From: a virus
Virus record (IMG/VR): IMGVR_UViG_3300037070_005035
Span: 4,261-68,260 of that record
DNA length: 64,000 nt
Strand: one strand, 5' to 3'
Shown here piece by piece: positions 14,818 through 47,988 of this stretch. The first letter of the stretch is position 1. Each line of letters begins with the position of its first letter. The notes under the pieces are model-generated. The model did no database searches. It saw only the letters and a list, made by a program, of their open reading frames with translations, and was not told where the DNA came from. A program made the translations under genes and the position numbers.

Positions 14818-14852
14818 AGCGATAATCCATTATCTTTTTTGCATCGATCATC

Positions 14853-15940: not shown

Positions 15941-15944
15941 GAAA

Positions 15945-16523
15945 TCACTCCAACACCTTGTGGCAATACATTTGCGACCGAGATCCGCCAGTGGCTTGCA
16001 CACCACCCAAAGGAGTACCAGTGCGAATAGCACGAGTCTTGATCGTCTCGCTGCCGCCAGTCGTATCGACGATCGTATTAACTGTCACACTGAAGTAATA
16101 CTGCTCGCTGGTGGAGGCTGGTCGCTTGGCCTTCACAAGCGCGTGTGATAGCTCAACATCAGCGCTATCAGTCAACTTCGTTAGTACACTGGTGTCGGCG
16201 TCGTCCAAGAAGGTGGCGCCGATGGCCATCGTCAGCAGGCCCTCGACAAAGAAGATTCCGCCAGCCGGCACGACCAGACTCATGATGTCGGTATCGACGA
16301 GATTGATGCCGACATTCGGCGAGAGTTGGACGAATTCGGTGTCACCAGGAAAAGATTGATCGAATGGCAGCCACTGGGCCTCAGTCACACCCCAGTATTC
16401 TAGCCTGGCCAGCGTACTATGCCAGATAATCGGCCCGCCTTCATGGGCATCCGGTGTCCCGATCGCATCCCGCTGAGCGGTCGTCAGGATCACTGGTGAT
16501 ATTTTGCCTAAAGTGGCGGTCAT
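15945..16523 (-). CDS. Minor virion protein, paralogue 3 of 3
   Basis: LTTAQRDAI...WHSTLARLEYW; KLTDSxxVEL shared with paralogue 2. Confidence 0.6.
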   Translation of the reverse strand: MTATLGKISPVILTTAQRDAIGTPDAHEGGPIIWHSTLARLEYWGVTEAQWLPFDQSFPGDTEFVQLSPNVGINLVDTDIMSLVVPAGGIFFVEGLLTMAIGATFLDDADTSVLTKLTDSADVELSHALVKAKRPASTSEQYYFSVTVNTIVDTTGGSETIKTRAIRTGTPLGGVQATGGSRSQMYCHKVLE

Positions 16524-18142
16524 GGCAACTCACATTTCACCATCACGACTTTACCATCGAATTGAGAACCATCGGTGACCCGCATGTGCAGGTCTCCACC
16601 ACTGGCCGGAACAACCAAGGCCCGATCGATATTCACCAGTTCATAACCATCGCCGAAGTCGGCATAGAACTGCACCGTGTAATGCTCGCCACAACCATGG
16701 GTCGATTCCGGAATCGTCATCGCCGAGTAGCCGCCGCTCGGCGTGCCCCAATCAGCAATCAGGAACTCCTCGACGTAAGTCGTCGCACCGGCGGCTGTGC
16801 TGGTGAATGTGATCTCATCAGGATTACTGAGCGTGATCGTCATCCCAGTACCAGGAACCAGCGTTAGCGTATCCGTCACGGAATCCGCCACCGCACTGCC
16901 ACCAGTCGAAATAGCGATCGTCTCGAAAAGATTCTGATTCGTATTGGGCGATGAGTTAGTAATCGTGATCGTATCAGCCGCGCTAAGCGTGATCGCGATA
17001 CCAGTCCCTGGAACAAGAGTGAGCGTATCTGTCGGAGAATCCGCCACCGCACTGCCACCAGTCGAAATCGCCACCGTCTCAAATAGATTCTGATTGACGT
17101 TCGGTGCCGTATTGGTGATCGTAATCGTGTCAGTAGTCGCATTGGTAGTAATCGCGATCCCCGTGCCATTCACCAGCGTCAGCGTATCGGTTGCGCTATC
17201 GGCCACAATGCTCGATTGGGTGGCCACCGCAATTGTCTCGAATAAATTCTGATTCGTATTCGGCGCCGTGTTAGTAATCGTAATCGTGTCAGTAGCCGCA
17301 TTAGTGGTAATCGCGATTCCAGTACCGTTGACCAACGTTAACGTATCGGTCGCACTGTCAGCCACAATACTGGACTGAGTAGCGACGGCGATTGTTTCGA
17401 ATAGATTCTGCACACCGCCCGGCGAGGTGTTGGTGATCGTGATTTGGTCAGCCGCGCTGAGAGTGATTGCTATGCCAGTTCCCGGAACAAGAGTCAGCGT
17501 ATCAGTTGGGGAATCGGCTACCGCACTACCACCAGTGGAAATGGCTACAGTCTCGAAGAGATTTTGATTCGCTCCAAACGGCGCATCAAAATGAAAGTCC
17601 CAAGCGGCCCCATCGTATGTCCAGGCACGCACTAGATTATCGTACCGCTCAATGTGCGAATCACCCTCGATCGGCCCCGCTGGCGGAGTAACCGGTGCCG
17701 CGCCAGGAGCACCGGCGGCACCTACCTCGACTGAGAATGTCTGGTTGCCATCCGCTTCGGCGTCACTGCCATCAACGCCATTTGTACCGTTGGTGCCATT
17801 GGTGCCATTCGTGCCATTGGTACCATTGGTCCCATTAACGCCATGGCAGATGTAGAACAATTGATCGACTTCGCCGACCGCCAATGTGCCGTCGCCGTTA
17901 TCGTCCACGCCGACTTCGATCTTCCAGCCGCCGCCCGGGCAATTCACGCCGACCGCCTCGACCGTGGCCTTGATCAGACTGTTATTGCCATCATCACCGT
18001 CGATGCCATTCGTGCCATTCGTGCCAGCCGTGCCGGGATTACCTTGTGGGCCAGTCGGGCCAGGCGGACAATCCTCGCACGTACCCGTGCCACCACCACC
18101 CGTCGTGCAATCAGTAATCCACCAATCATTTATTACTGGCAT
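16520..18142 (-). CDS. Fibre protein with short collagen stretches and five ~51-aa tandem repeats
   Basis: QNLFETxA...ADSxTDTLTLVxGTGxxIT unit x5; GTN runs. Confidence 0.75.
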   Translation of the reverse strand: MPVINDWWITDCTTGGGGTGTCEDCPPGPTGPQGNPGTAGTNGTNGIDGDDGNNSLIKATVEAVGVNCPGGGWKIEVGVDDNGDGTLAVGEVDQLFYICHGVNGTNGTNGTNGTNGTNGTNGVDGSDAEADGNQTFSVEVGAAGAPGAAPVTPPAGPIEGDSHIERYDNLVRAWTYDGAAWDFHFDAPFGANQNLFETVAISTGGSAVADSPTDTLTLVPGTGIAITLSAADQITITNTSPGGVQNLFETIAVATQSSIVADSATDTLTLVNGTGIAITTNAATDTITITNTAPNTNQNLFETIAVATQSSIVADSATDTLTLVNGTGIAITTNATTDTITITNTAPNVNQNLFETVAISTGGSAVADSPTDTLTLVPGTGIAITLSAADTITITNSSPNTNQNLFETIAISTGGSAVADSVTDTLTLVPGTGMTITLSNPDEITFTSTAAGATTYVEEFLIADWGTPSGGYSAMTIPESTHGCGEHYTVQFYADFGDGYELVNIDRALVVPASGGDLHMRVTDGSQFDGKVVMVKCELP

Positions 18143-37254: not shown

Positions 37255-38271
37255 ATGTCGAGTCTGACGAAACGACCGAGCGGCATTTACTGGCTGCAAT
37301 TTACCCTTGACGGACGGAAGCATACAAGGAGCCTGGGCCGGATAGATCGCGGCCTGGCGATGAGCATTTGTGGGAAGTTTGAAACATTGATGAGCGAAGG
37401 AAAGACGGGGCAAGCCATGGAGACAGTCACCGCTCAGGTCGCTCCCGAGCAGCGACAGTCAATGATTCATCTATGGGTGCAAGAATATCTGAAGGCCCTG
37501 GGCTGCAAGCCAGCCACGATGAAGACGCACTACCAAACCCTGGACCTGCTAACGGCTCAGTTCGGCACGTGCTCATTCCGGGATGTGGATTTCACTGGAG
37601 CACAAAAATTCGTAGCGTCACTCGGTCGATTCGCCGGGTCGACGCGGGCGAAGCATATCAGTCGAACCCGGCAATATTTCGATGCCGCAATCGATAGCGG
37701 AATCATCAGCAAGAATCCGTTTGAGTCATTTAAGTGCGGTAGTCAGCACAACCCGACACGATCACATTTCGTCAGCCGGGAGGACTACGAGAAACTCATG
37801 GCAGCCGCACCGAACCAAACGCTGAGGACAATCATCTCCTTGTCGAGAATCGGCGGCCTACGAATTCCGAGCGAGCTGCGCGGGCTCAAGTGGACAGATA
37901 TCGAAGCGGAAAAGATTTCGATCACGGGACACAAGACAGCCAGTCGCGCGTTCCCGATGTTCCCGGAGCTGAAGGAAGAACTAAACGCGCTCAGTAGGAA
38001 TCGCATGAACAATGGTACAGTAATCTCATATGACGGATGTTTGACCTATGCACTCCGGCAAATCATCCAACTGGCCGGATTGAAACGGTGGCCGAGAATT
38101 TGGCACAACATGCGAGCCTCTCGGATTACCGAGCTGAGTGACAAATTCCCTGTCCAAGTCGTGTCTACCTGGATGGGAAATTCGCCTGAAATCGCACTTC
38201 GACATTATCTCTCAGTGACAGATTCCCACTGGGAACAAGCCTTAAACGAGACGCGACAGGACAGAACATGA
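37255..38271 (+). CDS. int: Tyrosine recombinase/integrase
   Basis: SRIGGLRIPSE (R), WHNMRASR (HxxR), WMGNS...LRHY (Y); upstream TTGACC...TATTAT promoter. Confidence 0.9.
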   Translation: MSSLTKRPSGIYWLQFTLDGRKHTRSLGRIDRGLAMSICGKFETLMSEGKTGQAMETVTAQVAPEQRQSMIHLWVQEYLKALGCKPATMKTHYQTLDLLTAQFGTCSFRDVDFTGAQKFVASLGRFAGSTRAKHISRTRQYFDAAIDSGIISKNPFESFKCGSQHNPTRSHFVSREDYEKLMAAAPNQTLRTIISLSRIGGLRIPSELRGLKWTDIEAEKISITGHKTASRAFPMFPELKEELNALSRNRMNNGTVISYDGCLTYALRQIIQLAGLKRWPRIWHNMRASRITELSDKFPVQVVSTWMGNSPEIALRHYLSVTDSHWEQALNETRQDRT

Positions 38272-38349
38272 CACGACAAGACCGGACTGGGCAAGACCAG
38301 ACTTGGTCCGACATGACCAGACGTGACGTGACACGACAAGACTTGATTT
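38245..38349 (+). repeat. GAC-NN pentamer array 1 (21 units), putative guide RNA
   Basis: NN = GA GC AG AG AT AC AA CG TG AA CA TT CC AT CA GT GT AC AA TT TT; overlaps integrase stop. Confidence 0.9.
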
Positions 38350-38354
38350 TCAAC

Positions 38355-38372
38355 TGTGGAATATAAACCACA
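38355..38372. promoter_or_regulatory. Imperfect palindrome TGTGGAA-TATA-AACCACA (operator copy 4)
   Basis: Directly after array 1, upstream of csrA-like gene. Confidence 0.45.
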
Positions 38373-38394
38373 ACTTTAACCGAAGGATCAACCA

Positions 38395-38649
38395 ATGCTA
38401 GTTTTAGGACGACGAAGAAATGAATCAATTACCGTAGTAACTCCGAGCGGCGAGCGGATCGATTTTAAAATCGTGACCATCGATGGCGGATACGCGAGAA
38501 TTGGCATCACGGCCGAGAGGACGATACAAATTTACAGAAGTGAACTAGGAGAACGAGAACATGGGACTGAAGGACAGATCGGGCGCGAAATGGCTGCAGC
38601 TAACACGGGGCCGCTTAGTCCTCAAATCAAAGGACGGAACGACCAGTGA
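38395..38649 (+). CDS. csrA: CsrA/RsmA-family RNA-binding regulator
   Basis: MLVLGRRRNESI...ARIGITA...IYRSEL. Confidence 0.85.
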   Translation: MLVLGRRRNESITVVTPSGERIDFKIVTIDGGYARIGITAERTIQIYRSELGEREHGTEGQIGREMAAANTGPLSPQIKGRNDQ

Positions 38650-39310
38650 ACATGATTCATTGGAAGGCCGGATAATCGGAATCGATTTCCGTGACAACGT
38701 CTACGACGGCAAGACGACCAGACAGATTCATCTGATATTCGATGATGGAGATGACCAATATCAACTTGCGATCGCGGTTGGGAGCGGATACGGGAAACAG
38801 TTGATTCTGAAGCTTGCGACAGCGGACCTGCTCCAGCCAGTGGAAATCACTCCGACTTTTGCGGAGGATGGGCCGCGCAAGAACTCCGGGATGTTCGTCA
38901 GCCAGTTCGGCCAGCATCTAAAACAGCTTTGGACGCGAGACAACCCCGGGCCACTACCGCCACTGAAAGAGGTTGTCGTGAAGGGTCAAACAGTCTGGGA
39001 TGACACCGAGCAGTGTGAGTTTCTGGAAGAGTACGTTACCAGCCAGCTTGTGCCACAGATTAAGCAGGGCATCACGGTTGAACCAACTGATATGCCGCCA
39101 GCAGGCGGCGACACCGAAGCGACCACGGAGCTACTAAAGCTGATCAGCAAGACTCTGAAGGATGTCCAGCCCGGCGACAACTCGAAGCTGGCAACGATCA
39201 AGGCTCGGATCGAGGCCAACAAGGACAAGCTAGGCGGAGATTACCCGTTGGCATTGGAGTTGTGGTCGGGAGCGGTCGACAGATTGAAGGAAGATCATAC
39301 ACCGTTTTAA
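38561..39310 (+). CDS. Putative ssDNA-binding/recombination protein
   Basis: Beta-rich N-domain, KGQTVWDD, acidic EDHTPF tail typical of SSB-like proteins. Confidence 0.5.
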   Translation: MGLKDRSGAKWLQLTRGRLVLKSKDGTTSEHDSLEGRIIGIDFRDNVYDGKTTRQIHLIFDDGDDQYQLAIAVGSGYGKQLILKLATADLLQPVEITPTFAEDGPRKNSGMFVSQFGQHLKQLWTRDNPGPLPPLKEVVVKGQTVWDDTEQCEFLEEYVTSQLVPQIKQGITVEPTDMPPAGGDTEATTELLKLISKTLKDVQPGDNSKLATIKARIEANKDKLGGDYPLALELWSGAVDRLKEDHTPF

Positions 39311-39314
39311 TCCT

Positions 39315-39394
39315 GACGCGACCTGACGAGACTTGACTGGACGAGACGGGATGCGACATGACCCGACCTGACGGGACGCGACAAGACTTGATTT
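39315..39394 (+). repeat. GAC-NN pentamer array 2 (16 units)
   Basis: NN = (CT) GC CT GA TT TG GA GG GC AT CC CT GG GC AA TT TT. Confidence 0.9.
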
Positions 39395-39628
39395 ATGATC
39401 ACCAGCAAAATCGGACAACTGCTGTATCAGCGAGATGGTTATCGAGAACTCGGCGAAGCCGAAAACATGCTGCGAGTACGCGACAAGCTGACCGCGATTG
39501 ATTCGCTGTTCGAGGAGATGGTGGAGTGCATTGAGGAGTCAAACTGCAAGTGTAACCACCCTGTCTACAATCCGTGCCGGCGTTGTCGACTGATGCCGCG
39601 AATCGAAGAACTCAGAGGGAACGAATGA
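39395..39628 (+). CDS. Small Cys-rich protein, tandem paralogue A
   Basis: MITSKI...KLTAIDSLF...CKC...CRRC. Confidence 0.6.
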   Translation: MITSKIGQLLYQRDGYRELGEAENMLRVRDKLTAIDSLFEEMVECIEESNCKCNHPVYNPCRRCRLMPRIEELRGNE

Positions 39629-39861
39629 TCACCAGCAAGATTCGCGAGCTGTGGAAAACCATCGACGTCAGCGATGAATACCGGGATCGATACGACGCCA
39701 ATAGAAAGCTGACCGACATTGATTCGCTGTGGGACGACATGGTGGAGTTCGTTGAGGGATCTGGTTGTGCCTGCTTCGACGCATGCGGTCGCAGATGGAC
39801 AGACGCACCATGTGAGTTCTGTAGTCTGATAACGAGAATCAAGGAACTCACTGGGAAGTAG
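39625..39861 (+). CDS. Small Cys-rich protein, tandem paralogue B
   Basis: ATG 39625; MITSKI...KLTDIDSLW...CAC...CEFC. Confidence 0.6.
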   Translation: MITSKIRELWKTIDVSDEYRDRYDANRKLTDIDSLWDDMVEFVEGSGCACFDACGRRWTDAPCEFCSLITRIKELTGK

Positions 39862-39868
39862 GGTCAGC

Positions 39869-40087
39869 ATGTCGATTGAAATGAATACAAGCGAAGAAGT
39901 TGAGTTGCTGAACGGCGAATGCTGGCGGGCAGTTTCCGTCTGGCACGGGAAAGGCGATTCTTGGTTAACCATCCAAAAAATAATCGACGGAATTGTCTTC
40001 ATCCGACAAGTTGAGAGATGTGACCTGAAACATCCAAGTCACTGTAATTTTATGCTCATTAATCTATGGGAACCCATGGACGAGTGA
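39869..40087 (+). CDS. Hypothetical protein
   Basis: Operon-packed ORF. Confidence 0.45.
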   Translation: MSIEMNTSEEVELLNGECWRAVSVWHGKGDSWLTIQKIIDGIVFIRQVERCDLKHPSHCNFMLINLWEPMDE

Positions 40088-40109
40088 AGCTAGGACAAGG
40101 AGCTGCGAA

Positions 40110-40334
40110 ATGGTATTCGCGTTTGTGTTTTTTGTGATTCTGATTGGCTCTTGGGCGGCCTGGGAATTTATTTCATCGCCAGTCGTCACTGATGATAGAT
40201 ATGAAGAATTCTCGACCCGACATGACATGACGCGACGAGACGAGACCGGACTAGGCGAGACGAGACCGGATGGGACAAGACAGGACGTGACGAGACAAGA
40301 CTTGATTTTTTCCGGAGATAACGACGCCGCATAA
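40110..40334 (+). CDS. Small single-TM protein whose reading frame runs through array 3
   Basis: AAGGAG RBS; hydrophobic N-terminus. Confidence 0.5.
   Translation: MVFAFVFFVILIGSWAAWEFISSPVVTDDRYEEFSTRHDMTRRDETGLGETRPDGTRQDVTRQDLIFSGDNDAA
40214..40308 (+). repeat. GAC-NN pentamer array 3 (19 units)
   Basis: NN = (TC) CC AT AT GC GA GA CG TA GA GA CG GG AA AG GT GA AA TT TT. Confidence 0.9.
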
Positions 40335-40452
40335 CTCGACCTGACTCGACAGGACATGACGGGACGCGACTTAACTGGACAAGACTCGATCAGACGTGAC
40401 TCGACCAGATGCGACAGGACCCGATGCGACAGGACCCGACAAGACTTGATTT
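40333..40452 (+). repeat. GAC-NN pentamer array 4 (24 units)
   Basis: NN = TC CT TC AG AT GG GC TT TG AA TC CA GT TC CA GC AG CC GC AG CC AA TT TT. Confidence 0.9.
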
Positions 40453-40470
40453 ATTTAGAAAGAGGCAAAA

Positions 40471-40803
40471 TTGATGGAAATGGGTATCGTGACAATCGAC
40501 GGGGCAATTCATGGCGAGCGAGGTGAAACACAAAGACTAATTGCCGATGAGGGCGTGCGGTGGATCTGCCTGCTGCTCAAAAAGAATGCCGACTACGGCT
40601 GCTCTATCTGGGACGAGCCAATGCTATGTCCAGGCATGTCGTCCTCGTCGGCAATCCTAGTACGGATGGGGGATAAGATCAATCGATTGAAATCGCTGAT
40701 GGCCACTCATGCCGAAGTATCTGATGAGTCGATCGACGACACGCTACGGGACCTGGGAGCGTACTGCCTACTGCTACTGGCCAATCCGAACAGGAATAAA
40801 TGA
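40471..40803 (+). CDS. DUF1599-like (nucleotide-modification-associated) protein
   Basis: KKNADYG...VRMGDKINRL...ESIDDTLRDLGAY. Confidence 0.75.
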   Translation: MMEMGIVTIDGAIHGERGETQRLIADEGVRWICLLLKKNADYGCSIWDEPMLCPGMSSSSAILVRMGDKINRLKSLMATHAEVSDESIDDTLRDLGAYCLLLLANPNRNK

Positions 40804-41027
40804 AAGGAAAGGTGAACATGAAGAACCTGCGCATTGAATTCCAGGAATACCGCCAAGCCTGTTACGGCGATCAGGAAATTTCTGATGGCCCACTCAGAGA
40901 GATCGAGCAGGCATTTCTATCAGGTATACACCTGGCGCTGAACCGGCCACTGCTGAAGCCGAACATGATCAGCATTCAGAAACAGATCAAAGCCCGCCTA
41001 CTTGAATTAGGAGCCATCACGAAATGA
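40800..41027 (+). CDS. Hypothetical protein
   Basis: ATGA-coupled ORF. Confidence 0.5.
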   Translation: MKGKVNMKNLRIEFQEYRQACYGDQEISDGPLREIEQAFLSGIHLALNRPLLKPNMISIQKQIKARLLELGAITK

Positions 41028-41581
41028 AACACGAAGTCGAACTAGGGAAGCTAATCGAATCGCTGCAGCAGCGGGACGCCGTGCATGTGGCAGTGGCGCC
41101 GGTAATGGCTGCTGAGGAACTGTATCCAGGTCAGCACATCGGTTTTGTGGAAGGAACGAATGAACAAGTCAGAGGAGTCGCGAGGCTGATTGGAGTCGTG
41201 GACCCATTTCTGGAAAATAATGTTTTACCCGGCCAGAGGTTCTGGATGTTCCTTTATCCAAATACAATCACTGGCCTGCGGCACGACTGGTCACATCCGG
41301 CATTCAATAGCGAGGCCAGCAATCCCACTGGCGATCTAAATTTCGATGCCGCCTGTATCGTGGCCAGGATGTGCGGCAAGACATACGAAGCCCTCATGGA
41401 CGACGCCTATCGATGCGTTGGCAATGGGACCAATAAGTACGGCGACTATATCATGGACAACTCCGAGCGGTACAAGGGCGTCGGATATGACTTGTGGAAA
41501 CAGTTCTGGAAACACTACGAGCAAGTCCATGATGTAAAGCTGGAAGAAGAATACGACGCGCCTTACACGTGCAGTTGCTAA
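41024..41581 (+). CDS. Conserved phage protein (RDAxHVAVAPV family)
   Basis: RDAVHVAVAPV...GVVDPFL...FLYPNTITGLRHDWSHPAF...CSC. Confidence 0.7.
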   Translation: MKHEVELGKLIESLQQRDAVHVAVAPVMAAEELYPGQHIGFVEGTNEQVRGVARLIGVVDPFLENNVLPGQRFWMFLYPNTITGLRHDWSHPAFNSEASNPTGDLNFDAACIVARMCGKTYEALMDDAYRCVGNGTNKYGDYIMDNSERYKGVGYDLWKQFWKHYEQVHDVKLEEEYDAPYTCSC

Positions 41582-41583
41582 AT

Positions 41584-41788
41584 GACCAGGCTCAACTCGA
41601 CATGACAAGACCGGACACGACAAGACTCGAATCGACTTGACGTGACAAGACCGGACTGGGCAAGACATGGCGAGACATGGCGCGATGCGATTAGACGCGA
41701 CGAGACAAGACACGACCCGACTCGACGAGGCCAGGTTAGACATGACTAGATTAGGCCAGACCCGACCCGACGAGACTTGACTTGATTT
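41584..41788 (+). repeat. GAC-NN pentamer array 5 (41 units)
   Basis: Uninterrupted 5-bp phase; ends GACTTGACTTGATTT. Confidence 0.9.
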
Positions 41789-41812
41789 TTTTGAAAGGGG
41801 ACACATGAAACA

Positions 41813-41902
41813 AACCTGACAAGACTAGACGAGACGCGACAGGACAAGACAGGACCCGACTGGACTAGTTTCGATTTGATCTGATCTGACAAGACTTGAT
41901 TT
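41813..41902 (+). repeat. GAC-NN pentamer array 6 (18 units), directly upstream of RAMP-like gene
   Basis: NN = CT AA TA GA GC AG AA AG CC TG TA TC TT CT CT AA TT TT. Confidence 0.9.
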
Positions 41903-41921
41903 TTTTCAAAAGGAAAACCAA

Positions 41922-42497
41922 ATGAAAGCCGCGACTGTATTATTGAAAAGCTTACCGGGCAGCGAACTATTCTTCGGCAAGCCCAAGACCTCCAAGAAGC
42001 TGGCCAACGAGACGCACGACCAATTCGACCAGAGGACTTGGAAGGAATCGGTATCGCACCACGAAGGCAAGCTGTTTATCCAGCCATTCGCTTTGAAGAA
42101 CGGTCTGGAGTCATCAGCAAAATGGCTATCGATACCGATTCCCGGCGAGGGGAAGAAGACATTCACGAAGCGTTTCGTGAGCGGAATCCTGGTCGTCGAT
42201 AAGCTGTGGCTGACAGACGACACGGGCAAGGCATTGACCATGGAGGACGTGGAACCGCTATCGCTATTCGTCCCCTCCGATGGTGTACGCGGAAGCGGCA
42301 AGCGGGTATTTAGGATCTTCCCTTCCGTCAAGTCATGGATGGCTTACGCGGAAATTCATGTTATTGATCAGAAGATCGATAAAAAAATTCTAGAGGAGCA
42401 CCTGACGTGCTGCGGCAATTTCGTTGGATTCGGCTCGATGCGAGCGCAGAATGGCGGGATCAACGGACGATTCTCGATTGAAGAATTGCAGTTTTAA
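41922..42497 (+). CDS. Stand-alone RAMP/Cas7-like RNA-binding protein, putative effector of the pentamer arrays
   Basis: beta1 ATVLLKSL; LFIQPFALKNGL (like Cas7 xIPxxxxKGxxR); C-terminal Gly loop GNFVGFGSMRAQNGGINGRF; arrays on both sides. Confidence 0.75.
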   Translation: MKAATVLLKSLPGSELFFGKPKTSKKLANETHDQFDQRTWKESVSHHEGKLFIQPFALKNGLESSAKWLSIPIPGEGKKTFTKRFVSGILVVDKLWLTDDTGKALTMEDVEPLSLFVPSDGVRGSGKRVFRIFPSVKSWMAYAEIHVIDQKIDKKILEEHLTCCGNFVGFGSMRAQNGGINGRFSIEELQF

Positions 42498-42580
42498 CCT
42501 GACGCGACACGGCATGACCAGACATGACATGACGAGACGCGACAAGACATGACGAGACCGGACGCGACAAGACTTGATTT
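42496..42580 (+). repeat. GAC-NN pentamer array 7 (17 units)
   Basis: NN = CT GC AC AT CA AT AT GA GC AA AT GA CG GC AA TT TT. Confidence 0.9.
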
Positions 42581-42588
42581 TACAAATC

Positions 42589-42723
42589 AACACGACAAGA
42601 CGAGACGCGACACGATAGGACAACACAAGACCGGACTCGACGGGACGTAACTGGACTGGATCGAACTAGACATGACCCGGCTCGACCTGATTCGACAGGA
42701 CAACACCTGACAAGACTTGATTT
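42589..42723 (+). repeat. GAC-NN pentamer array 8 (27 units)
   Basis: NN = AC AA GA GC AC AG AA AA CG TC GG GT TG TG CG TA AT CC TC CT TC AG AA CT AA TT TT. Confidence 0.9.
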
Positions 42724-42745
42724 TCAACCTACAGGATAAAAAAGC

Positions 42746-43267
42746 ATGGAATCATATTCATTTCGACACGGATTGCATCACTCAACCTCGCTGGCCATCG
42801 ACCTGCTGGAAAAAGGCAAGCCGGGCGACACGATCGACCGGTCGCGGATGGCTGAGCAGATCGGCGAGCCGTGTGAATGCGGCGAGGTTGGCTATCAGCA
42901 CGTGCGGAGCGCGATCAATCACGTACTGAACCGATCGGGGGTGGCCTGGGAATGGGACAGGAATTTGAAAGTCTGGCTATGCCTGGACGATCCGCAGCGC
43001 GTGAACAGCCACTCCAGAACCAATAAGGCGGTATCCAGGAAGGCCCGCAAGGGGCTGCGGCTGGCATCCACGATTAATACGAAAAAGCTATCCAACGACG
43101 AGCGGCGCGACCATCAACTGAATATCGTATCCGGCTCGCTTTCGGTGGCGGCGATTTCGTCGCCATTCAGGACACGATTGGCCAATAGTGGAGTAGGAGA
43201 CAGGTTGCTGAATACCGACCAGCTCGCCAATCAACTGGCGGCGATGCTGTCCAATGGCTCAACCTGA
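42746..43267 (+). CDS. Hypothetical basic helical protein, candidate partner of RAMP-like protein
   Basis: 173 aa, wHTH-like N-half, between arrays 8 and 9. Confidence 0.6.
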   Translation: MESYSFRHGLHHSTSLAIDLLEKGKPGDTIDRSRMAEQIGEPCECGEVGYQHVRSAINHVLNRSGVAWEWDRNLKVWLCLDDPQRVNSHSRTNKAVSRKARKGLRLASTINTKKLSNDERRDHQLNIVSGSLSVAAISSPFRTRLANSGVGDRLLNTDQLANQLAAMLSNGST

Positions 43268-43465
43268 CCGGACTGGACATGACATGACTCGATTTGACAA
43301 GACTCGACAGGACGAGACTCGGTAGGACATGACAAGACTGGACGCAACACGACGTGACGGGACAAGACATGACTTGATGAGGCGCGACTGGACTTGACTC
43401 GACCTGATAAGACCGGATGCGACACGGTGAGACTTGACGAGACTTGACTAGACAAGACTTGATTT
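43261..43465 (+). repeat. GAC-NN pentamer array 9 (41 units)
   Basis: Uninterrupted 5-bp phase; ends GACAAGACTTGATTT. Confidence 0.9.
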
Positions 43466-43489
43466 TTTCAAAACGAAAGGAACAAACAA

Positions 43490-43705
43490 ATGGCTTGCCA
43501 AACATGCGATCACACGATGCAAGGAATATCACGAGTGTTTTGGTGTCCGCGCTGCGGAACAATCAAGATGCCTGGCTCGGCACCTGAATTCGAAGCCCCT
43601 TCGATCGTTGACAGAGTCCATGCATTCATGAAGTACGCCAAAGTTGATGGATCAGATCCGTTCGTGGAAAGCATCTACAGGTCACTGGTGGAGTGCGTTG
43701 GATGA
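43490..43705 (+). CDS. Small Zn-ribbon protein
   Basis: CQTC...WCPRCG; AAGGA RBS. Confidence 0.6.
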   Translation: MACQTCDHTMQGISRVFWCPRCGTIKMPGSAPEFEAPSIVDRVHAFMKYAKVDGSDPFVESIYRSLVECVG

Positions 43706-43714
43706 AATAATCCA

Positions 43715-43794
43715 GACATGACATGGCACGTCACGACTCGACATGACAGGACCCAACATGACGGGACGAGCCCTGACAAGACAAGACTTGATTT
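43715..43794 (+). repeat. GAC-NN pentamer array 10 (16 units)
   Basis: NN = AT AT AC AC TC AT AG CC AT GG GA CT AA AA TT TT. Confidence 0.88.
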
Positions 43795-43813
43795 TTTATT
43801 GAAAGAACACCCG

Positions 43814-44167
43814 TTGAATACGGCAATCAAAATAATCGGAAGCCAAAGTGCTGAGCGACTGGCCGCGATCCGTGGACCGATCCGACCCATTTGGATAAGT
43901 GATCAAGAATTAGAAATCATGATTCAGTGTTTGCAGCCAAGCCCAACCGACATCGACTTCCTGGCTGAGCGGAATATCCGATGGTCAGGGTCTATGTTGG
44001 AATCATTGAAGCGGGAGCAGGAGCTACGCAGGAGTAAGAAGTTGATCCACGACCTGGGAGGGAAGCTGCAATACCAGCTAAAGGCCCATGTCGACACAAC
44101 GGACACTGTTAAGGAGATCTTAAGTGCCCAGGAAAGAATTAACGCTATCGAATCATCAGCCATCTAA
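43814..44167 (+). CDS. Hypothetical protein
   Basis: Start placed at TTG 43814 after array 10 (track start 43718 lies inside the array). Confidence 0.5.
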   Translation: MNTAIKIIGSQSAERLAAIRGPIRPIWISDQELEIMIQCLQPSPTDIDFLAERNIRWSGSMLESLKREQELRRSKKLIHDLGGKLQYQLKAHVDTTDTVKEILSAQERINAIESSAI

Positions 44168-45029
44168 AGTCGACTTGGCCTGGATGCCGCCTGGCAAGCG
44201 GACTCGGCTGGGAGAGATCTCAAGCAGGCTAAAGGAGAATGATATTCAAGGGGCCAGGTGGCTAATCATCAAAGCGGAGCTGGTTGCGGAAGCAAAGGGG
44301 ATTTTCGATGCCCACTCAGGCAAGACGGAAACCTGGGGTGGCTGGTGTGAGCAGAATGATATGGATCGCAGTTTATCGTACCATCTGATATCGATTTGGG
44401 AGAGATTTTCCACCGCCAGTGGGCTGCTGGAGAATTTCAGCGTATCGGCCATTCGGCATCTGGGGGTGTGTAGCTCGGACCAGCCGGCCAAGCATGCCAT
44501 CATATTGGCCACGGATGGCGAGTTCGTTTCATTTTCAACGGCCAAGCAGATTGTATCCAAGTGGACGGAAGGCGGAGCGGCGGCGATGAGCCAAGCTGCT
44601 GATGATGACGAAGCGGACGAGGCGCCAGTTAGTAGCGCCCCCGCCGCTCCGCGGCAACTCCTTCCTGGAGGAAATGATAGTCCTGGGGGAGGCGGGCGGG
44701 AGCCGGTGCGGTCTGCCGGAGGAGGCAGGGAATCGGCGCCGGCCATTAACCGTGGCACGACCGTTTCGTACACACCAGCGACGACTGCAAAACCAATCAA
44801 GGAATCCTGCATAGGCAAGGAATTCAATCCGATCAATCAAATCATACGTGCGAAGGAAAAGATCAACCAACTAATGCGGATTCTGGATGAAGAGGATCTA
44901 AAGCCGACATTAGGCCAGAGGTGGAACGCCGGACTTGTGAATCTCTGCGATCAATTACTTAAATCATTGGGAGACGCGGAGAAAAATGTCTATCGAAAAC
45001 TCGAACAACGGCAGGGGAAAAGAAATTGA
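44124..45029 (+). CDS. DUF3102-like DNA-binding protein
   Basis: LVAEAK...TWGGWCEQN-MDRSLSYHLISIWERF helical domain, disordered linker. Confidence 0.55.
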   Translation: MPRKELTLSNHQPSKVDLAWMPPGKRTRLGEISSRLKENDIQGARWLIIKAELVAEAKGIFDAHSGKTETWGGWCEQNDMDRSLSYHLISIWERFSTASGLLENFSVSAIRHLGVCSSDQPAKHAIILATDGEFVSFSTAKQIVSKWTEGGAAAMSQAADDDEADEAPVSSAPAAPRQLLPGGNDSPGGGGREPVRSAGGGRESAPAINRGTTVSYTPATTAKPIKESCIGKEFNPINQIIRAKEKINQLMRILDEEDLKPTLGQRWNAGLVNLCDQLLKSLGDAEKNVYRKLEQRQGKRN

Positions 45030-45039
45030 TTTTAGGTCC

Positions 45040-45222
45040 ATGATAGCCCGTGAGCTGAAGCGCCAAGAAAAGAGCGTGACTTGGTTGGCCCAACAGGGTG
45101 GGTGTCCACATCGAAATAGCATTTATCGATTTCTGCGCAAGGAGCGGGACGTGAGATCAGCGTCATTGGCGGCGATGCTGCGAGCCCTGGGACTTCACAT
45201 GATCGGACAATATGGAAAATGA
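45040..45222 (+). CDS. Cro/XRE-like HTH protein
   Basis: SVTWLAQQGGCPHRNSIYRFLRKERD...LAAMLRALGL; start may be 44986. Confidence 0.7.
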   Translation: MIARELKRQEKSVTWLAQQGGCPHRNSIYRFLRKERDVRSASLAAMLRALGLHMIGQYGK

Positions 45223-45227
45223 CAGAT

Positions 45228-45312
45228 AACATCACGCGACTAGACCGGACTAGACATGACGAGATTTGACCGGACTGGATGGGACCAGACGAGACGCCAC
45301 AAGACTTGATTT
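45228..45312 (+). repeat. GAC-NN pentamer array 11 (17 units)
   Basis: NN = AT GC TA CG TA AT GA TT CG TG GG CA GA GC AA TT TT. Confidence 0.88.
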
Positions 45313-45323
45313 ACATTTGAGAC

Positions 45324-45498
45324 AACCCGACGCGACTCGGCACGACCAGAAGCGACTTGACAGGACGAGACCTGACTAGACAAGACTTGACTAGACCGGA
45401 CGAGACAAGACTGGACTGGACTTGACCAGACGTGACCTGATGGGACTAGGTCTGGCCCGACAAGATGCGACCAGACGAGACGCCACAAGACTTGATTT
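45324..45498 (+). repeat. GAC-NN pentamer array 12 (35 units)
   Basis: Shares 3' end GACCAGACGAGACGCCACAAGACTTGATTTAC with array 11. Confidence 0.9.
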
Positions 45499-45501
45499 AC
45501 C

Positions 45502-45744
45502 ATGGAGCTTGCAATGGATTTCCTGGCTGACCTCCGCACCAAGCGTGATCAATTGATATTTGACGACTGGATGGGAGATCGATACGGCATCCTGGTCCGG
45601 CCAGACAGTAGCCTGCCGGACTGGGGTGCCAGGCTGGAAAGCCACGGAGTGGCCGTGGGAGTGGAGGCACATCGATCACTGCTGGAGTACCAGGAGTTCA
45701 TCCGCAAAGGCCGCTGCTCGATCTCGGATGCCGAGCTGAATTAG
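45502..45744 (+). CDS. Hypothetical protein
   Basis: ORF directly after array 12. Confidence 0.5.
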   Translation: MELAMDFLADLRTKRDQLIFDDWMGDRYGILVRPDSSLPDWGARLESHGVAVGVEAHRSLLEYQEFIRKGRCSISDAELN

Positions 45745-45748
45745 GGCC

Positions 45749-45943
45749 ATGCCTAAGCGGAAAGAAATAGATTGGGCTCACTGCATCATGTGCGGCATGC
45801 CGAGAGTATTTTCCGAAGACCCTGACTTGTGCGCTTTGTGTTGGTTTGGATGCCAACCCGACGAGATCGCCAATCTTATGACCATCGAATCCGATTGGAC
45901 TCCAGAACAGGATGCGGAACCGGGATGGCTCGACGAACGATAA
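45749..45943 (+). CDS. Small Zn-finger protein
   Basis: CIMC...CALC. Confidence 0.5.
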   Translation: MPKRKEIDWAHCIMCGMPRVFSEDPDLCALCWFGCQPDEIANLMTIESDWTPEQDAEPGWLDER

Positions 45944-46236
45944 AACACAAGCCAAGAACCGTCAATTCACCGCAATACCGCCATTCAGATGGATCGGTGA
46001 ATACATTGTTTGACGCCTTGTTGGACTTCGAATCAGATCAGCACTTCCGCCCACGCCGTACCAAGCCCACCGATGCCCCGCCTGGCACACCGGAAAAGAT
46101 CTCCGTGCTCTCCACTCGCCTCGAGCGCGGCGAGGAGCTGCACCACGAGAATGATTACCGCTACCCGACTCCGCCGCATTGGATGATGATCATCCAGGAT
46201 ATCGAAGATGAAGTATTTCAGCAGAAAATGAGGTAA
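45829..46236 (+). CDS. Hypothetical protein (PTxAxPGxxEK...LHHxxD motif); start uncertain
   Basis: PTDAPPGTPEKISVLSTRLERGEELHHEND, a motif I associate with planctomycete proteins. Confidence 0.5.
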   Translation: MRFVLVWMPTRRDRQSYDHRIRLDSRTGCGTGMARRTIKHKPRTVNSPQYRHSDGSVNTLFDALLDFESDQHFRPRRTKPTDAPPGTPEKISVLSTRLERGEELHHENDYRYPTPPHWMMIIQDIEDEVFQQKMR

Positions 46237-46237
46237 A

Positions 46238-46262
46238 AGTTGTGGAACAGTATTCCACAACT
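46238..46262. promoter_or_regulatory. Palindrome AGTTGTGGAA-N5-TTCCACAACT (operator copy 5)
   Basis: Between convergent transcription units. Confidence 0.6.
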
Positions 46263-46272
46263 AACGAAAGGG

Positions 46273-46337
46273 AAATCAAGTCTTGTCGCGTCCTGTCGAG
46301 TCAAATCGGGTCTTGTCGTATCCTGTCAAGTCGCGTC
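46273..46337 (-). repeat. GAC-NN pentamer array 13 (13 units), minus strand
   Basis: NN = GC TT AG AC AA CC TT TC AG GC AA TT TT; follows minus-strand gene 46366-46848. Confidence 0.88.
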
Positions 46338-46365
46338 TTAATTCAGTCAACGTTGCGTCAGCGCG

Positions 46366-46848
46366 CTATTCTCCCCACGTACTTGGTTCCTGCAGTAAAT
46401 CCAGCAGTAGTTTCAACCTAGGATCACGCTTGGCCGGCTGCGCTGCCAACCAGATTAAATACTCACGATCAATGGCCATGACTTCGGCTACTGATTTTCC
46501 TTTGTACTTGCCAAACCAGAATTTTAGCTCGTCGCCATTAGGAGCAACATTCGAATCAGCTAGCTCGAAATTACCACTTGCTCGTGCGCGACGGCCAAGA
46601 TCGCGATCATTGTATTTCGACCAATCATCACGCGGCATCTCAGCGTTCCCTTGCCGCATCCCAATACGTCTCATACGCTTCGTACAAACATCACGTACAT
46701 CGATCGCATCCCTACATCGCTTCCAAATCCGTCTCGCGCCCCGAACCCCAAGCTCGCCGAAGACCGTCGAAGCTGGTACCAACTTTCCGACTTGGAAGGC
46801 GCGGGCAACCAGCGTGAGTCGTGTCGTTTCCACTGTTATTTTCTGCAA
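46366..46848 (-). CDS. Protein with DUF3820/ExoX-C-like domain
   Basis: FWFGKYKGKSVAEV...REYLIWL. Confidence 0.7.
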   Translation of the reverse strand: MQKITVETTRLTLVARAFQVGKLVPASTVFGELGVRGARRIWKRCRDAIDVRDVCTKRMRRIGMRQGNAEMPRDDWSKYNDRDLGRRARASGNFELADSNVAPNGDELKFWFGKYKGKSVAEVMAIDREYLIWLAAQPAKRDPRLKLLLDLLQEPSTWGE

Positions 46849-47200
46849 TTAGGCAATTGCTAGCATAAAGGGGGCCTAGGAAATAATGTGTAAGTCTTAG
46901 CCAGATGGCCCTTTGGCCCCTTATTACCGTCCTAACGAGAACGGGCGAGTGCCGCGACCCCTGCGGTCGAAGTTATCTTCGGTTCACCCGGCCTAGATCA
47001 TGTCATCGTGCCGGTTGTGCATGACTGGCCGGCTTGCCAAGCCAGCGCTTACAGCCAAGAATTTCATATTGCCAGGCGACCGAACCACCAGCGACCTGGC
47101 AATAATCTTTTCACAGCCGTTGTTAGTCATGCTCTCGCGCTACCACCGAGCTACTAATTACACCGGGAATTCTAACTGTACACGCTTCCCGGACGCGCAT

Positions 47201-47355
47201 TAAAAAACCCCCAGCTTTTGAGGGCTGAGGGCTGTTTTTGCGTTGTACACGGCCACGTGCAAGGACGCAAAGCTTCAAATTGTACATGTCGCCATCCTTG
47301 TGATGTGGCCGTGTCTTCCTGACAGAATCTTATCTCACCTTCACCATCGCGTCAA
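47201..47355 (-). ncRNA. Putative ~120-nt small RNA or attenuator with own promoter and terminator
   Basis: TTGACG (47355-47350)-17 bp-TAAGAT (47332-47327); long hairpin 47314-47247; CCCTCAGC/GCTGGGGG stem then T6. Confidence 0.5.
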
Positions 47356-47529
47356 CTTTCCTCTTGTAAAATTTCACGAACATTTCAGATAATCAATCTT
47401 AACCGCCCGCGTGGGCGGTTAGCTGTGCCCGCAGCGGAGGTCGATTAGTTTGCCCCATCGGCCTCCAATTTTTCCATCAAAAGCGAAATTACCATCGAAA
47501 TAGATCGCCGTCTAGTTTTTGGTGAATAA

Positions 47530-47758
47530 TTAAATTTCGTTTCTGTCTAGGCATATTTCAACGACTTTTCGGCACATTTCAATGTCAAAGAAGCCGATGT
47601 AACAATCACCAACTGGTATTTCTAACTGACGTGCGAGCCAGGACTTAGCGGCACGCCGATCTTCTATATCACCAAAGCTCCAGATCCTGTCGAACGCGGC
47701 AATTGCCCTCTTTCTGGCTCCATCAAGCACCATCTCTTGACCAAATTCGCACATGCAC
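47530..47758 (-). CDS. DUF3268 C-terminal-like protein
   Basis: RKRAIAAFDRIW...AKSWLARQLEI...CYIGFFDIEMC. Confidence 0.65.
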
Positions 47759-47792
47759 ATTGATAGATTTCCTTTGACATTCGGTTGAAAGT

Positions 47793-47848
47793 TGTGGAAC
47801 ACTATTCCACAGATGGCTACTTGCCAATTATAACCTGATTGGTATTAT
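47793..47848 (+). promoter_or_regulatory. Operator copy 6 (47793-47811) and promoter TTGCCA...TGGTATTAT upstream of array 14
   Basis: TGTGGAA-CACTA-TTCCACA; GATTGGTATTAT identical to integrase promoter region. Confidence 0.55.
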
Positions 47849-47918
47849 TCTCACAGTGGCGGCCGAGTACCGAAAGCGGAAAATTCCCATGCGCGGAAAG
47901 GCCGCCTATTTTCTTCCT

Positions 47919-47988
47919 GACGTGACCTGACGTGACGTGACCTGACCAGATCCGACCAGACAGGATGTGACGAGACAAGACTTGATTT
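47919..47988 (+). repeat. GAC-NN pentamer array 14 (14 units)
   Basis: NN = (CT) GT CT GT GT CT CA CC CA AG GT GA AA TT TT. Confidence 0.88.

What the first reader, a model, noticed from the sequence alone, without database searches (positions are those of the whole stretch)
40176..40308. Array 3 decodes to the 11 codons immediately preceding it and lies inside that ORF
NN TC CC AT AT GC GA GA CG TA GA GA against tcg cca gtc gtc act gat gat aga tat gaa gaa (40176-40208): 7 of 11 exact, one Arg synonymous. Decoded SPIIADDRYEE versus SPVVTDDRYEE. The array begins 3-5 bp after the matched site and the ORF reads through it, as if the guide were inserted at its own target. This echoes homing-endonuclease logic, where an element sits next to the site it recognises in element-free alleles.
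Basis: partly seen in the sequence, partly recalled or inferred. Interest (0 to 1): 0.8.

Follow-up and report, generated by a model that had tools for sequence, protein, structure and literature searches.

The report
Phage VIPR guide resembling neighbouring gene
The five-base repeat tract is a guide RNA gene of a recently described phage gene-silencing system (VIPR), and its variable letters really do spell a near-copy of the small gene just upstream, most likely because it is aimed at a rival phage's version of that gene.

Summary
Observation confirmed. Array 40212-40306 has 19 NN-GAC units. Read two letters per codon, units 1-11 match 40176-40208 at 7 of 11. That is the only such score among about 128,000 window positions. 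The four mismatches are synonymous or conservative, and only 1 of 40,000 unit-order shuffles does as well at protein level.

The "decoding" is not new. It is the published "1-nt skip rule" of VIPR systems (bioRxiv 10.64898/2026.04.26.720920), and GAC/NN variants are named in 10.64898/2026.10.21.760802. This scan has noted GAC-type VIPR arrays on other DNA before.

The window carries a stand-alone Cas7-like protein (41922-42497), a conserved partner gene and about 19 such arrays.

What is unusual: 5 of 17 guides resemble their own neighbouring gene (p<0.01), always skipping the wobble base and always below 80% match. Related VIPR loci do not show this.

Best reading: the guide targets foreign alleles of the adjacent gene, and the phage's own allele escapes through mismatches.

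The "inserted at its own target / homing" idea is not supported. The rest of the guide has no counterpart after the array, and no array-free allele was found.

The parts
The last three units (GA AA TT) belong to an end shared by most arrays.
   Evidence: The period-5 scan and unit list show 16 GAC, 1 GGC and 2 GAT.
40302..40312 (+). Shared 3' end of the arrays: a TTGAT unit followed by a T-run. It may be the 3' tail or the end of the vrRNA.
   Evidence: Of the 19 arrays listed, most end in the same AAGAC-TTGAT-T-run string. No hairpin terminator was called here.
40176..40208 (+). Partial, target-like site in the phage's own gene. These are 11 codons whose first two bases match guide units 1-11 at 7 of 11. 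The skipped base is codon position 3.
40110..40334 (+). Small ORF (74 aa) with a hydrophobic N-terminus and a ribosome-binding site. Its last 40 codons are array, tail and a short stretch beyond. No homologue is on record.
   Evidence: No Pfam or PHROG family matched. Only the ORF itself was found among 5.8 billion proteins.
40152..40196 (+). Second, weaker target-like site in the same ORF. It is matched in antisense orientation by the next array (40336-40450) at 6 of 15 dinucleotides, in the ORF's frame.
   Evidence: One search gives p = 0.018. One search gives the alignment WAAWEFISSPVVTDD.
40336..40450 (+). Next vrRNA array, 23 units, with the same shared end.
41922..42497 (+). vipr: a stand-alone Cas7-like RAMP protein of 191 aa.
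   Evidence: AlphaFold2 model with mean pLDDT 95.7. The best PDB folds are Cas7 of type VII, Csm3 and Cmr4, with E about 1e-6 and TM 0.55-0.59. There are 119 homologues. Relatives sit beside GAC/NN or GGC/NN arrays.
42746..43267 (+). Candidate vipr-accessory (vap) gene, 173 aa. It has no family assignment.
   Evidence: It is 39% identical (E 6e-35) to the gene in the same place after vipr in L127. No Pfam or PHROG hit.
42499..42578 (+). vrRNA array directly after vipr. Units 2-12 match vipr codons 42348-42380 at 8 of 11.
   Evidence: (p 8.5e-4). One foreign Vipr (P0004) fits the decoded guide at 11 of 14 against 8 of 14 for the phage's own protein.
45236..45295 (+). vrRNA array whose units 3-11 match, in antisense, codons of the upstream small gene 45040-45222 (site 45102-45128) at 8 of 9. 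The one mismatch is a synonymous Ser.
   Evidence: (p <= 5e-5).
39313..39392 (+). vrRNA array after the SSB-like gene. It matches codons 39251-39274 at 6 of 8. Decoded L-A-L-E-(F/L)-W-(D/E)-G-A-(I/M) against the gene's LALELWSGAV.
38248..47986 (+). The whole guide-bearing early region. It holds 18 plus-strand NN-GAC arrays and one minus-strand array (46280-46339), interleaved with the integrase, CsrA-like, SSB-like, vipr, vap and small genes.

Best explanation
The tract at 40212-40306 is a guide-RNA (vrRNA) gene of a GAC-type VIPR system carried by a temperate soil phage.

By analogy with the published GGY-type systems, copies of the small Cas7-like Vipr protein (41922-42497) would line up along the transcript, one per five-base unit. 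They hold each GAC and present each variable dinucleotide. The filament would then bind double-stranded DNA whose sequence reads NN-x-NN-x, with x falling on the codon wobble base, and silence transcription there.

The 11 codons just upstream look like the guide because the guide is aimed at a foreign allele of that same small gene, carried by a competing relative. The phage's own allele is spared. Only 7 of 11 (8 of 19) dinucleotides match, and the second half of the site is absent.

The guide therefore sits beside the resistant allele of its own target. The same holds for at least four other guides of this phage: the SSB-like gene, vipr, the small gene at 45040, and more weakly the vap candidate and the integrase.

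Shown here: the array anatomy, the Cas7-like fold, the non-chance similarity, the wobble skipping, and that every match to the phage's own genes stays below 80%.

Inferred: transcription and processing of the array, Vipr binding, silencing, and the existence of the rival allele.
For: Anatomy and family:
- 19 arrays of NN+GAC in strict 5-base phase, on the strand of local genes.
- Stand-alone RAMP with pLDDT 95.7. Its best folds are Cas7, Csm3 and Cmr4 at E 1e-6.
- A conserved vipr-partner pair and same-tailed arrays in L127.
- Of 79 newly fetched loci (80 kept) encoding relatives of this protein, 24 carry GAC period-5 seeds. Others carry GGC (the canonical GGY), GTT or CAC.
- The rule and its biology are published. 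GAC/NN arrays beside Vipr-like folds are published.

This array:
- The 7 of 11 match is unique in the window.
- Protein-level shuffles: 0 of 5,000 and 1 of 40,000.
- Top of 2.25 million positions.
- The skipped base is codon position 3.
- The neighbouring array hits the same ORF from the other strand.

The rule holds in this phage. Testing 0, 1, 2 and 3 skipped bases, 1, 6, 2 and 0 of the 18 arrays reach p<0.05 against their flanks. Fisher p is 0.70, 0.0015, 0.59 and about 1.

Rival-allele reading:
- Mismatches are synonymous or conservative, as expected between homologues: Arg CGN/AGA here, Leu CTN/TTG in array 39313, Ser TCN/AGC in array 45236.
- For the guide after vipr, a foreign Vipr (P0004, 61% identical) fits the decoded guide at 11 of 14 against 8 of 14 for the phage's own protein. 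The other 117 homologues fit at 8 or fewer.
- All matches to the phage's own genes are below 80% NN over the whole array. This agrees with the papers' report of no self-targeting hit at 80% or more, and of self-match scores below non-self scores.
Against: - No actual target was found. There is no homologue of ORF 40110-40334.
- The allele-tolerant gapped pattern gave 0 hits in viral contigs and 0 in genome contigs. It gave 1 unrelated, eukaryote-like hit in metagenome contigs.
- None of the window's guides reaches a convincing match in 79 loci of the Vipr family. The best scores, 13-15, are in the range the null gives.
- A gapped search for the allele predicted by the vipr guide gave 0 hits.
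- Neighbour-gene similarity is not a general VIPR property. It was seen in 5, 3 and 1 of 92 arrays of other GAC loci at p<0.05, 0.01 and 0.001. It was seen in 2, 0 and 0 of 90 arrays in 33 Vipr-family loci. Both are about chance.
- 11 of the window's 17 arrays show nothing at p<0.05.
- At nucleotide level alone, this array's local p is only 0.037.
- The P0004 comparison is at protein level only. Its DNA could not be fetched.
- Expression of the array and binding by Vipr are untested for the GAC type.
Confidence: 0.6

Rival explanations
1. Guide birth from local sequence. New guides are somehow written from, or copied beside, the gene next to them. The present mismatches are later drift in the guide or in the gene. 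Neighbourhood would then reflect how guides arise, not what they target.
For: Five of 17 guides resemble a gene within about 200 nt, four of them the gene immediately upstream. In the parts I read, no paper states how vrRNAs acquire matches of 20 or more specified bases. The only related wording found is 'acquisition of a new vrRNA'.
Against: No writing enzyme is known or evident in the window. Matches occur in both orientations. Array 42592 matches the downstream gene instead. Relatives show no such neighbourhood effect. The vipr guide fits a foreign Vipr better than the phage's own, which points to a foreign template or to selection on a foreign target.
Confidence: 0.15
2. First reader's reading. 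The array inserted into its own recognition site in the small gene, like a homing element that disrupts and so protects its target.
For: The matched site ends 3 bases before the array. The match stops where the array begins. The ORF has no stop before the array.
Against: The remaining 8 units are not found after the array: 1 of 8 in the ORF frame, at best 3 of 8 nearby. The other guide-gene pairs lie 39-208 nt away. Abutting or overlapping gene ends is the norm for arrays here. No nuclease or mobility gene is attached to the array. Contigs from three soil runs show no array-free junction.
Confidence: 0.1
3. Self-regulation. The imperfect match lets the Vipr-guide complex bind the phage's own small gene weakly and tune the early genes, for example during lysogeny.
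For: Two adjacent guides converge on 40152-40208 from both strands. The phage is temperate, since it carries an integrase. The strongest case, array 45236, matches 8 of 9 consecutive units.
Against: In the published system, perturbing NN pairing abolished silencing. Natural targets were called at 80% NN match or more, and no self hit passed that level. Here the match is 7 of 11, or 8 of 19 over the array.
Confidence: 0.1
4. Chance resemblance between a composition-biased array and a nearby coding stretch.
For: The nucleotide-level local p is only 0.037. Most arrays here and elsewhere show nothing.
Against: 1 of 40,000 shuffles at protein level. Top of 2.25 million positions. Three other arrays reach the floor of the test (p about 1e-4). 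Only the 1-nt skip register gives a signal. All hits skip codon position 3.
Confidence: 0.03

Closest known systems
VIPR systems (Vipr + vrRNA + Vap), type II of Escherichia phage SUSP1 and the Pseudomonas fulva prophage clade (bioRxiv 10.64898/2026.04.26.720920; structures in 10.64898/2026.04.26.720927)
   Same: - A phage-borne, single small Cas7-like RAMP of about 20 kD with a partner gene.
- Guides built of five-base units with a fixed triplet and a free dinucleotide.
- The match to targets skips one base per unit, and that base falls on the codon wobble.
- Targets lie on either strand.
- Matches to the phage's own genome stay below 80% NN.
   Different: - The fixed triplet is GAC, not GGY.
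- The tail is a short TTGAT plus T-run, not a pseudoknot.
- About 19 arrays of 5-25 units (as called) are spread over 10 kb between nearly all early genes, instead of a few vrRNAs beside vipr.
- Several guides resemble the gene next to them.
- Nothing here has been tested experimentally.
Non-canonical VIPR arrays (GAC/NN, CAC/NN and others) found by entropy periodicity (bioRxiv 10.64898/2026.10.21.760802, section 2.3 and Fig. S10 legend; passages only)
   Same: GAC/NN five-base repeats next to a protein with a Vipr-like fold.
   Different: That paper describes clusters in which the motif repeats about 10 times. In the passages I saw, it reports no targets. Here the array lengths vary, and partial matches to the phage's own neighbouring genes are seen.
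Solo vrRNAs of SUSP1-family phages that target relatives' vipr genes and vrRNAs (bioRxiv 10.64898/2026.10.15.759431, section 8)
   Same: Guides are aimed at the homologous locus of close relatives. Self-match is lower than non-self match, which avoids autoimmunity. Guides sit at the locus homologous to their target.
   Different: There the targets are vipr, vrRNAs and satellites. Here the apparent targets include an SSB-like gene, a small membrane-type ORF, a small regulator-sized gene and perhaps the integrase, each with its guide directly alongside.
Free-standing homing endonucleases of T-even phages
   Same: An element sits beside a gene whose alleles in related phages it attacks, while the linked allele is resistant.
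   Different: No nuclease, no cleavage and no evidence of insertion at the site. Any spread would come from selection on recombinants, not from break repair.

Membership tests
VIPR system | Stand-alone small RAMP (Cas7-like) protein with no other cas genes or CRISPR array | tested here: met
   The 191-aa protein has a model with mean pLDDT 95.7. Foldseek against PDB puts Cas7 (type VII), Csm3 and Cmr4 on top, with E 1.4e-6 and TM 0.59. No Rfam family, CRISPR repeats included, reaches threshold in the window. TRF shows no CRISPR-like array.
VIPR system | Tandem five-base units with a fixed triplet and a hypervariable dinucleotide, next to vipr, on the transcribed strand | tested here: met
   One search found 18 plus-strand arrays and 1 minus-strand array. 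The triplet is GAC rather than GGY. The GAC/NN variant is named in the literature.
VIPR system | One-base-skip pairing rule, with the skipped base on the codon wobble and either strand targeted | tested here: met
   Only the 1-nt skip gives an excess of flank matches: 6 of 18 arrays, Fisher p 0.0015, against 0.70, 0.59 and about 1 for 0, 2 and 3 skipped bases. All seven near hits skip codon position 3. Both orientations are seen. These are partial matches to the phage's own genes, not confirmed targets.
VIPR system | Accessory (vap) gene beside vipr | tested here: inconclusive
   The 173-aa gene after vipr is conserved in the same place in L127, at 39% identity and E 6e-35. It has no Pfam or PHROG family and was not compared with the published vap1-6.
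VIPR system | Sequence kinship with published Vipr proteins | tested here: inconclusive
   Relatives of this protein at 37-44% identity sit beside canonical GGC/NN arrays. No published Vipr sequence was compared directly. P0034 is UniRef A0A0F9LW03, which is not one of the five seed accessions named in the paper.
VIPR system | vrRNA is expressed, binds Vipr and silences matching DNA | not testable with these tools
   No RNA run is listed for this DNA. This needs small-RNA sequencing, a pull-down and a reporter assay.
VIPR system | Natural targets in competing mobile elements at 80% NN match or more | tested here: not met
   No such target was found in 79 Vipr-family loci or in about 120 array-bearing loci (which was dominated by low-complexity false arrays). 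Gapped pattern scans also found none. The collection scans allow exact patterns only, so this is weak negative evidence.
Homing element / homing endonuclease logic | The element is inserted within its own recognition site, so that the flanks together rebuild the site | tested here: not met
   The upstream half is present at 7 of 11. The downstream half is absent: 1 of 8, at best 3 of 8.
Homing element / homing endonuclease logic | An associated nuclease that cuts element-free alleles | not tested
   No nuclease was looked for beyond the ten ORFs scanned, and none was seen there.

The most novel reading that the evidence does not exclude
In this phage the early genes are organised as 'gene plus guide' cassettes. 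Each guide silences foreign alleles of the gene it sits beside, and the linked allele is resistant. A co-infecting relative can then rescue its silenced gene only by recombining in the resistant allele, and with it the guide. The guides would spread through a phage population like a nuclease-free homing or gene-drive element. Alternatively, the neighbourhood records how new VIPR guides are made from local sequence, which would bear on the open question of how vrRNAs acquire specificity.
Probability: 0.3. Interest if true: 0.8.

Novelty: new member of a known kind. Interest (0 to 1): 0.55.

Why it matters
VIPR was described only in 2026. In the parts of the four preprints I read, guides are reported to hit satellites, prophages and rivals' VIPR loci. 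Hits to the guide's own genome are mentioned only as absent above 80%.

Here a single phage shows guides interleaved with its early genes. Five of them are near-copies of the gene next door, below the targeting threshold, with synonymous and conservative differences.

If this reflects rival-allele targeting with a linked resistant allele, it is a concrete case of self/non-self discrimination by a few codon changes. It would also be a possible route by which guides spread.

If it reflects guide birth, it gives a first handle on how vrRNA specificity arises.

Either way it offers ready-made pairs, each a guide with a naturally mismatched site, for measuring the mismatch tolerance of a GAC-type VIPR.

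Tried and rejected
1. TRAP-like or CsrA-like protein-binding RNA array. This was my first reading, prompted by the period-5 triplets and a phage CsrA homologue. I dropped it once the VIPR papers and the Cas7-like fold explained the arrays.

2. Known RNA families and tRNAs: none in the window.

3. Homologues of ORF 40110-40334: only the ORF itself. Lengths of 40-130 aa were searched. The native part is only 34 aa, so distant alleles could be missed.

4. Gapped pattern admitting both the guide-like and the self-like allele: 0 in viral contigs and 0 in genome contigs. The 1 hit in metagenome contigs (L129) is an unrelated stretch with many in-frame stops under table 11 and no arrays. About one chance hit is expected for that much specified sequence, by my own estimate.

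5. Gapped pattern for the allele predicted by the vipr guide: 0 in viral contigs.

6. The shared array end as a pattern: 0 in viral contigs and 0 in genome contigs.

7. blastn of 38400-45300 against cultured phages: no match.

8. All-against-all guide search in about 120 array-bearing loci. The top scores came from low-complexity false arrays, so the comparison of skip lengths there (steps 2-5) was not informative and is not used.

9. Window guides against L127/L128 and L127's guides against the window: nothing above background. The exception is L127's guide 2, which matches its own vipr at 8 of 13.

10. Homologues of the SSB-like protein (6 besides the query) do not share the C-terminal stretch that array 39313 resembles, so there is no test there.

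11. Sequencing runs. No RNA holder is listed. Contigs of three soil DNA runs, which may be the source of this record, are identical to the window over 38000-45312. The listed joints link array-like repeats at low depth, and none removes array 40212-40306. Contigs cannot show rare variants.

12. Array 38248 gave p 0.34-0.96. A different, antisense hit of array 38308 to integrase codons 38161-38178 gave p 0.0027.

13. Supplementary files of the papers are closed. Data S3, fig. S10 and fig. S17 of the first preprint, and Supplementary Tables 14-18 of the October preprint (which hold self-targeting scores), may already record partial self matches or GAC-type targets. I could not see them.

Full report
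**What is there.** The window is most of a 68,260-base IMG/VR virus record: linear, with a CheckV completeness estimate of 58%. Between 38.2 and 48 kb, next to an integrase (37255-38271), lie 18 plus-strand arrays and one minus-strand array. Each is built of five-base units in strict phase, a free dinucleotide followed by GAC (sometimes GAT, GGC, AAC or CAC). Most arrays end in the same AAGAC-TTGAT-T-run string. They fill the gaps between small early genes: a CsrA homologue, an SSB-like gene, several orphans and a DUF1599 protein. The finding concerns the array at 40212-40306 (19 units) and the 33 bases before it.

Units 1-11 (TC CC AT AT GC GA GA CG TA GA GA) match the first two bases of the 11 codons at 40176-40208 at 7 of 11.
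- Sliding this 11-unit guide over both strands of the window gives one position at 7 (this one), four at 6 and 57 at 5.
- With a local ungapped score and shuffling of unit order, the nucleotide-level p for a hit this good within 300 nt on either strand is only 0.037.
- The four mismatches are not random. CG against AGA is Arg/Arg. AT against GTC, twice, is Ile-or-Met/Val. GC against ACT is Ala/Thr.
- I scored each dinucleotide by the best BLOSUM62 value of its four possible codons. No shuffle of 5,000 (plus strand) and 1 of 40,000 (both strands and orientations) reaches the observed score.
- The site is the best diagonal among 2,249,400 positions in the window plus 120 other loci (40 against 35).

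**ORF and array.** The ORF 40110-40334 has a ribosome-binding site and a hydrophobic N-terminus. It reads through the array in the only stop-free frame.

**What the arrays are.** A literature search and earlier notes of this scan led to the VIPR preprints.
- In 10.64898/2026.04.26.720920 I read the Results, the Discussion and some method passages. VIPR is a phage-borne system of a Vipr protein of about 20 kD, related to Cas7, plus vrRNAs of 9-16 five-base repeats (GGY plus NN).
- The NN dinucleotides pair with double-stranded DNA under a "1 nt skip rule". The skipped base mostly falls on the codon wobble position. Either strand can be targeted and there is no PAM.
- Natural targets are competing phages, satellites and other VIPR loci. 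No guide hit its own contig at 80% NN match or more.
- A later preprint (10.64898/2026.10.21.760802, passages only) names GAC/NN and CAC/NN variants beside Vipr-like folds.

**The protein partners are present.**
- ORF 41922-42497 (191 aa) has 119 homologues. It folds with mean pLDDT 95.7. Its best PDB matches are Cas7 of type VII complexes, Csm3 and Cmr4 (E about 1e-6, TM 0.55-0.59).
- The next gene (42746-43267) is conserved in the same place in a related contig, which also has same-tailed GAC arrays.
- IMG/VR holds 372 relatives of the protein, and the best 80 loci were kept. Of the 79 newly fetched, 24 have GAC period-5 seeds. Others have GGC (16 by my count of the listing), GTT or CAC.

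**The rule applies here, and this array is one of several.** I compared each of the 18 plus-strand arrays with its own 300-nt flanks under 0, 1, 2 or 3 skipped bases. The numbers of arrays at p<0.05 were 1, 6, 2 and 0. Fisher p was 0.70, 0.0015, 0.59 and about 1.

At protein level, 17 window arrays were tested (600-nt flanks, null from other loci). Six, five and four of them fall below p 0.05, 0.01 and 0.001. The cases are:
- Array 39313 against the end of the SSB-like gene: 6 of 8, with Leu CTN/TTG swaps.
- Array 40212 against ORF 40110, which is the finding.
- Array 42499 against vipr: 8 of 11.
- Array 45236 in antisense against the small gene 45040-45222: 8 of 9, the one mismatch being Ser TCN/AGC.
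- Array 38308 in antisense against integrase codons.
- Array 40336 in antisense against the same ORF 40110, at 40152-40196: 6 of 15, p 0.018.
- Array 42592 against the downstream vap candidate: 6 of 7, weaker (p 0.009, 0.017, 0.07).

In every case the skipped base is codon position 3. No match to the phage's own genes reaches 80% of the array's units.

**Most likely meaning.** Synonymous and conservative mismatches are what one expects if the guide matches a homologue of the neighbouring gene rather than the gene itself.

For the one pair where homologues exist, this can be seen. The guide after vipr decodes to L-A-T-(I/M)-(H/Q)-(I/M)-(I/M)-(D/E)-A-(K/N)-(I/M)-(D/E)-R-A. The phage's own Vipr fits 8 of these 14. 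One foreign Vipr (P0004, 61% identical) fits 11. The remaining 117 fit 8 or fewer. This is protein-level evidence only and merely suggestive, because two of the three gained positions are common in the family.

It agrees with the October preprint (10.64898/2026.10.15.759431, section 8). There, guides aimed at relatives' vipr genes and vrRNAs have lower self-match than non-self match.

I therefore read array 40212-40306 as a guide against foreign alleles of the small gene upstream. The phage's own allele is spared by four mismatched units and by lacking the second half of the site.

**Against this reading.** I found no target.
- ORF 40110 has no homologue on record.
- Gapped pattern scans were empty or unrelated.
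- The window's guides have no convincing match in 79 Vipr-family loci.
- Neighbour-gene similarity is not a general VIPR feature. Among 92 arrays of other GAC-bearing loci, 5, 3 and 1 fall below p 0.05, 0.01 and 0.001. Among 90 arrays of 33 Vipr-family loci, the counts are 2, 0 and 0.
- An earlier nucleotide-level survey gave 12 of 128 arrays at p<0.05, six of them the window's.

So this phage is exceptional, and the reason is not known.

The match does stop at the array, but three points count against insertion.
- The remaining eight units are not found after the array: 1 of 8 in frame, at best 3 of 8 nearby.
- The other pairs lie 39-208 nt from their arrays.
- Arrays here routinely begin at or inside the stop codon of the upstream gene.

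Three soil runs hold the phage at a summed contig word depth of about 88-186, with contigs identical over 38000-45312 and no array-free junction. Contigs cannot exclude rare variants.

A linkage version of the homing analogy remains possible and is given as the novel case. In it, the guide stays beside the resistant allele, so recombinants that escape silencing also inherit the guide.

**Verdict.** This is a real and statistically strong observation. Its code and its system are already known (VIPR, GAC variant), and this scan has noted such arrays on other DNA. The unusual part is that guides are interleaved with the early genes and that several are sub-threshold near-copies of the gene next door. 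I did not find that in the parts of the four preprints I could read. Their supplements were closed.

Noticed in passing
window 38395-38649 (+): A phage-encoded CsrA homologue (Pfam PF02599, E 2.8e-13). It lies between the first arrays and overlaps the start of the SSB-like ORF call by 89 nt. Its role beside a VIPR locus is unknown.
   Followed up: partly
window 38561-39310 (+): A 249-aa protein whose six homologues end in an acidic tail plus (I/V)PF, while this one ends in TPF, as in SSB C-termini. It carries an extra C-terminal stretch, absent from the homologues, that array 39313 resembles.
   Followed up: partly
window 39395-39628 and 39574-39861 (+): Two overlapping ORFs encode paralogous Cys-rich small proteins that share an MITSKI start and C-x-C motifs. 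Neither has a family assignment.
   Followed up: no
window 46280-46339 (-): The only minus-strand NN-GAC array, with the same shared end. It lies where the local ORFs are also on the minus strand, so arrays follow the direction of transcription.
   Followed up: no
loci L130-L208 (IMG/VR relatives of the Vipr protein): Within one protein family (37-58% identity to the window's Vipr), the fixed triplet of the neighbouring arrays switches between GAC, GGC, GTT and CAC. This could be used to map which residues read the triplet.
   Followed up: partly
L127 3292-3361 against 2860-2897: In the closest IMG/VR relative, the guide after vipr matches its own vipr at 8 of 13 units over the conserved G-E-G-K-K-T-F motif. 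This is a possible anti-VIPR guide.
   Followed up: partly
L087 7457-7561 against 8091-8129: The one strong neighbour-gene match outside the window: a 13-unit antisense match about 530 nt downstream, at the floor of the test (p about 1e-4).
   Followed up: no
window 14072-17844: Runs of 9-, 18-, 27- and about 156-base tandem repeats inside the late region. These are probably repeat-rich tail-fibre or collagen-like coding sequence.
   Followed up: no
window 40239-40309 and 47917-47986: Array 40212 and array 47917 share a similar 3' part, with 13 differences over 71 bases in the laid contigs. This suggests that blocks are duplicated or exchanged between arrays.
   Followed up: no
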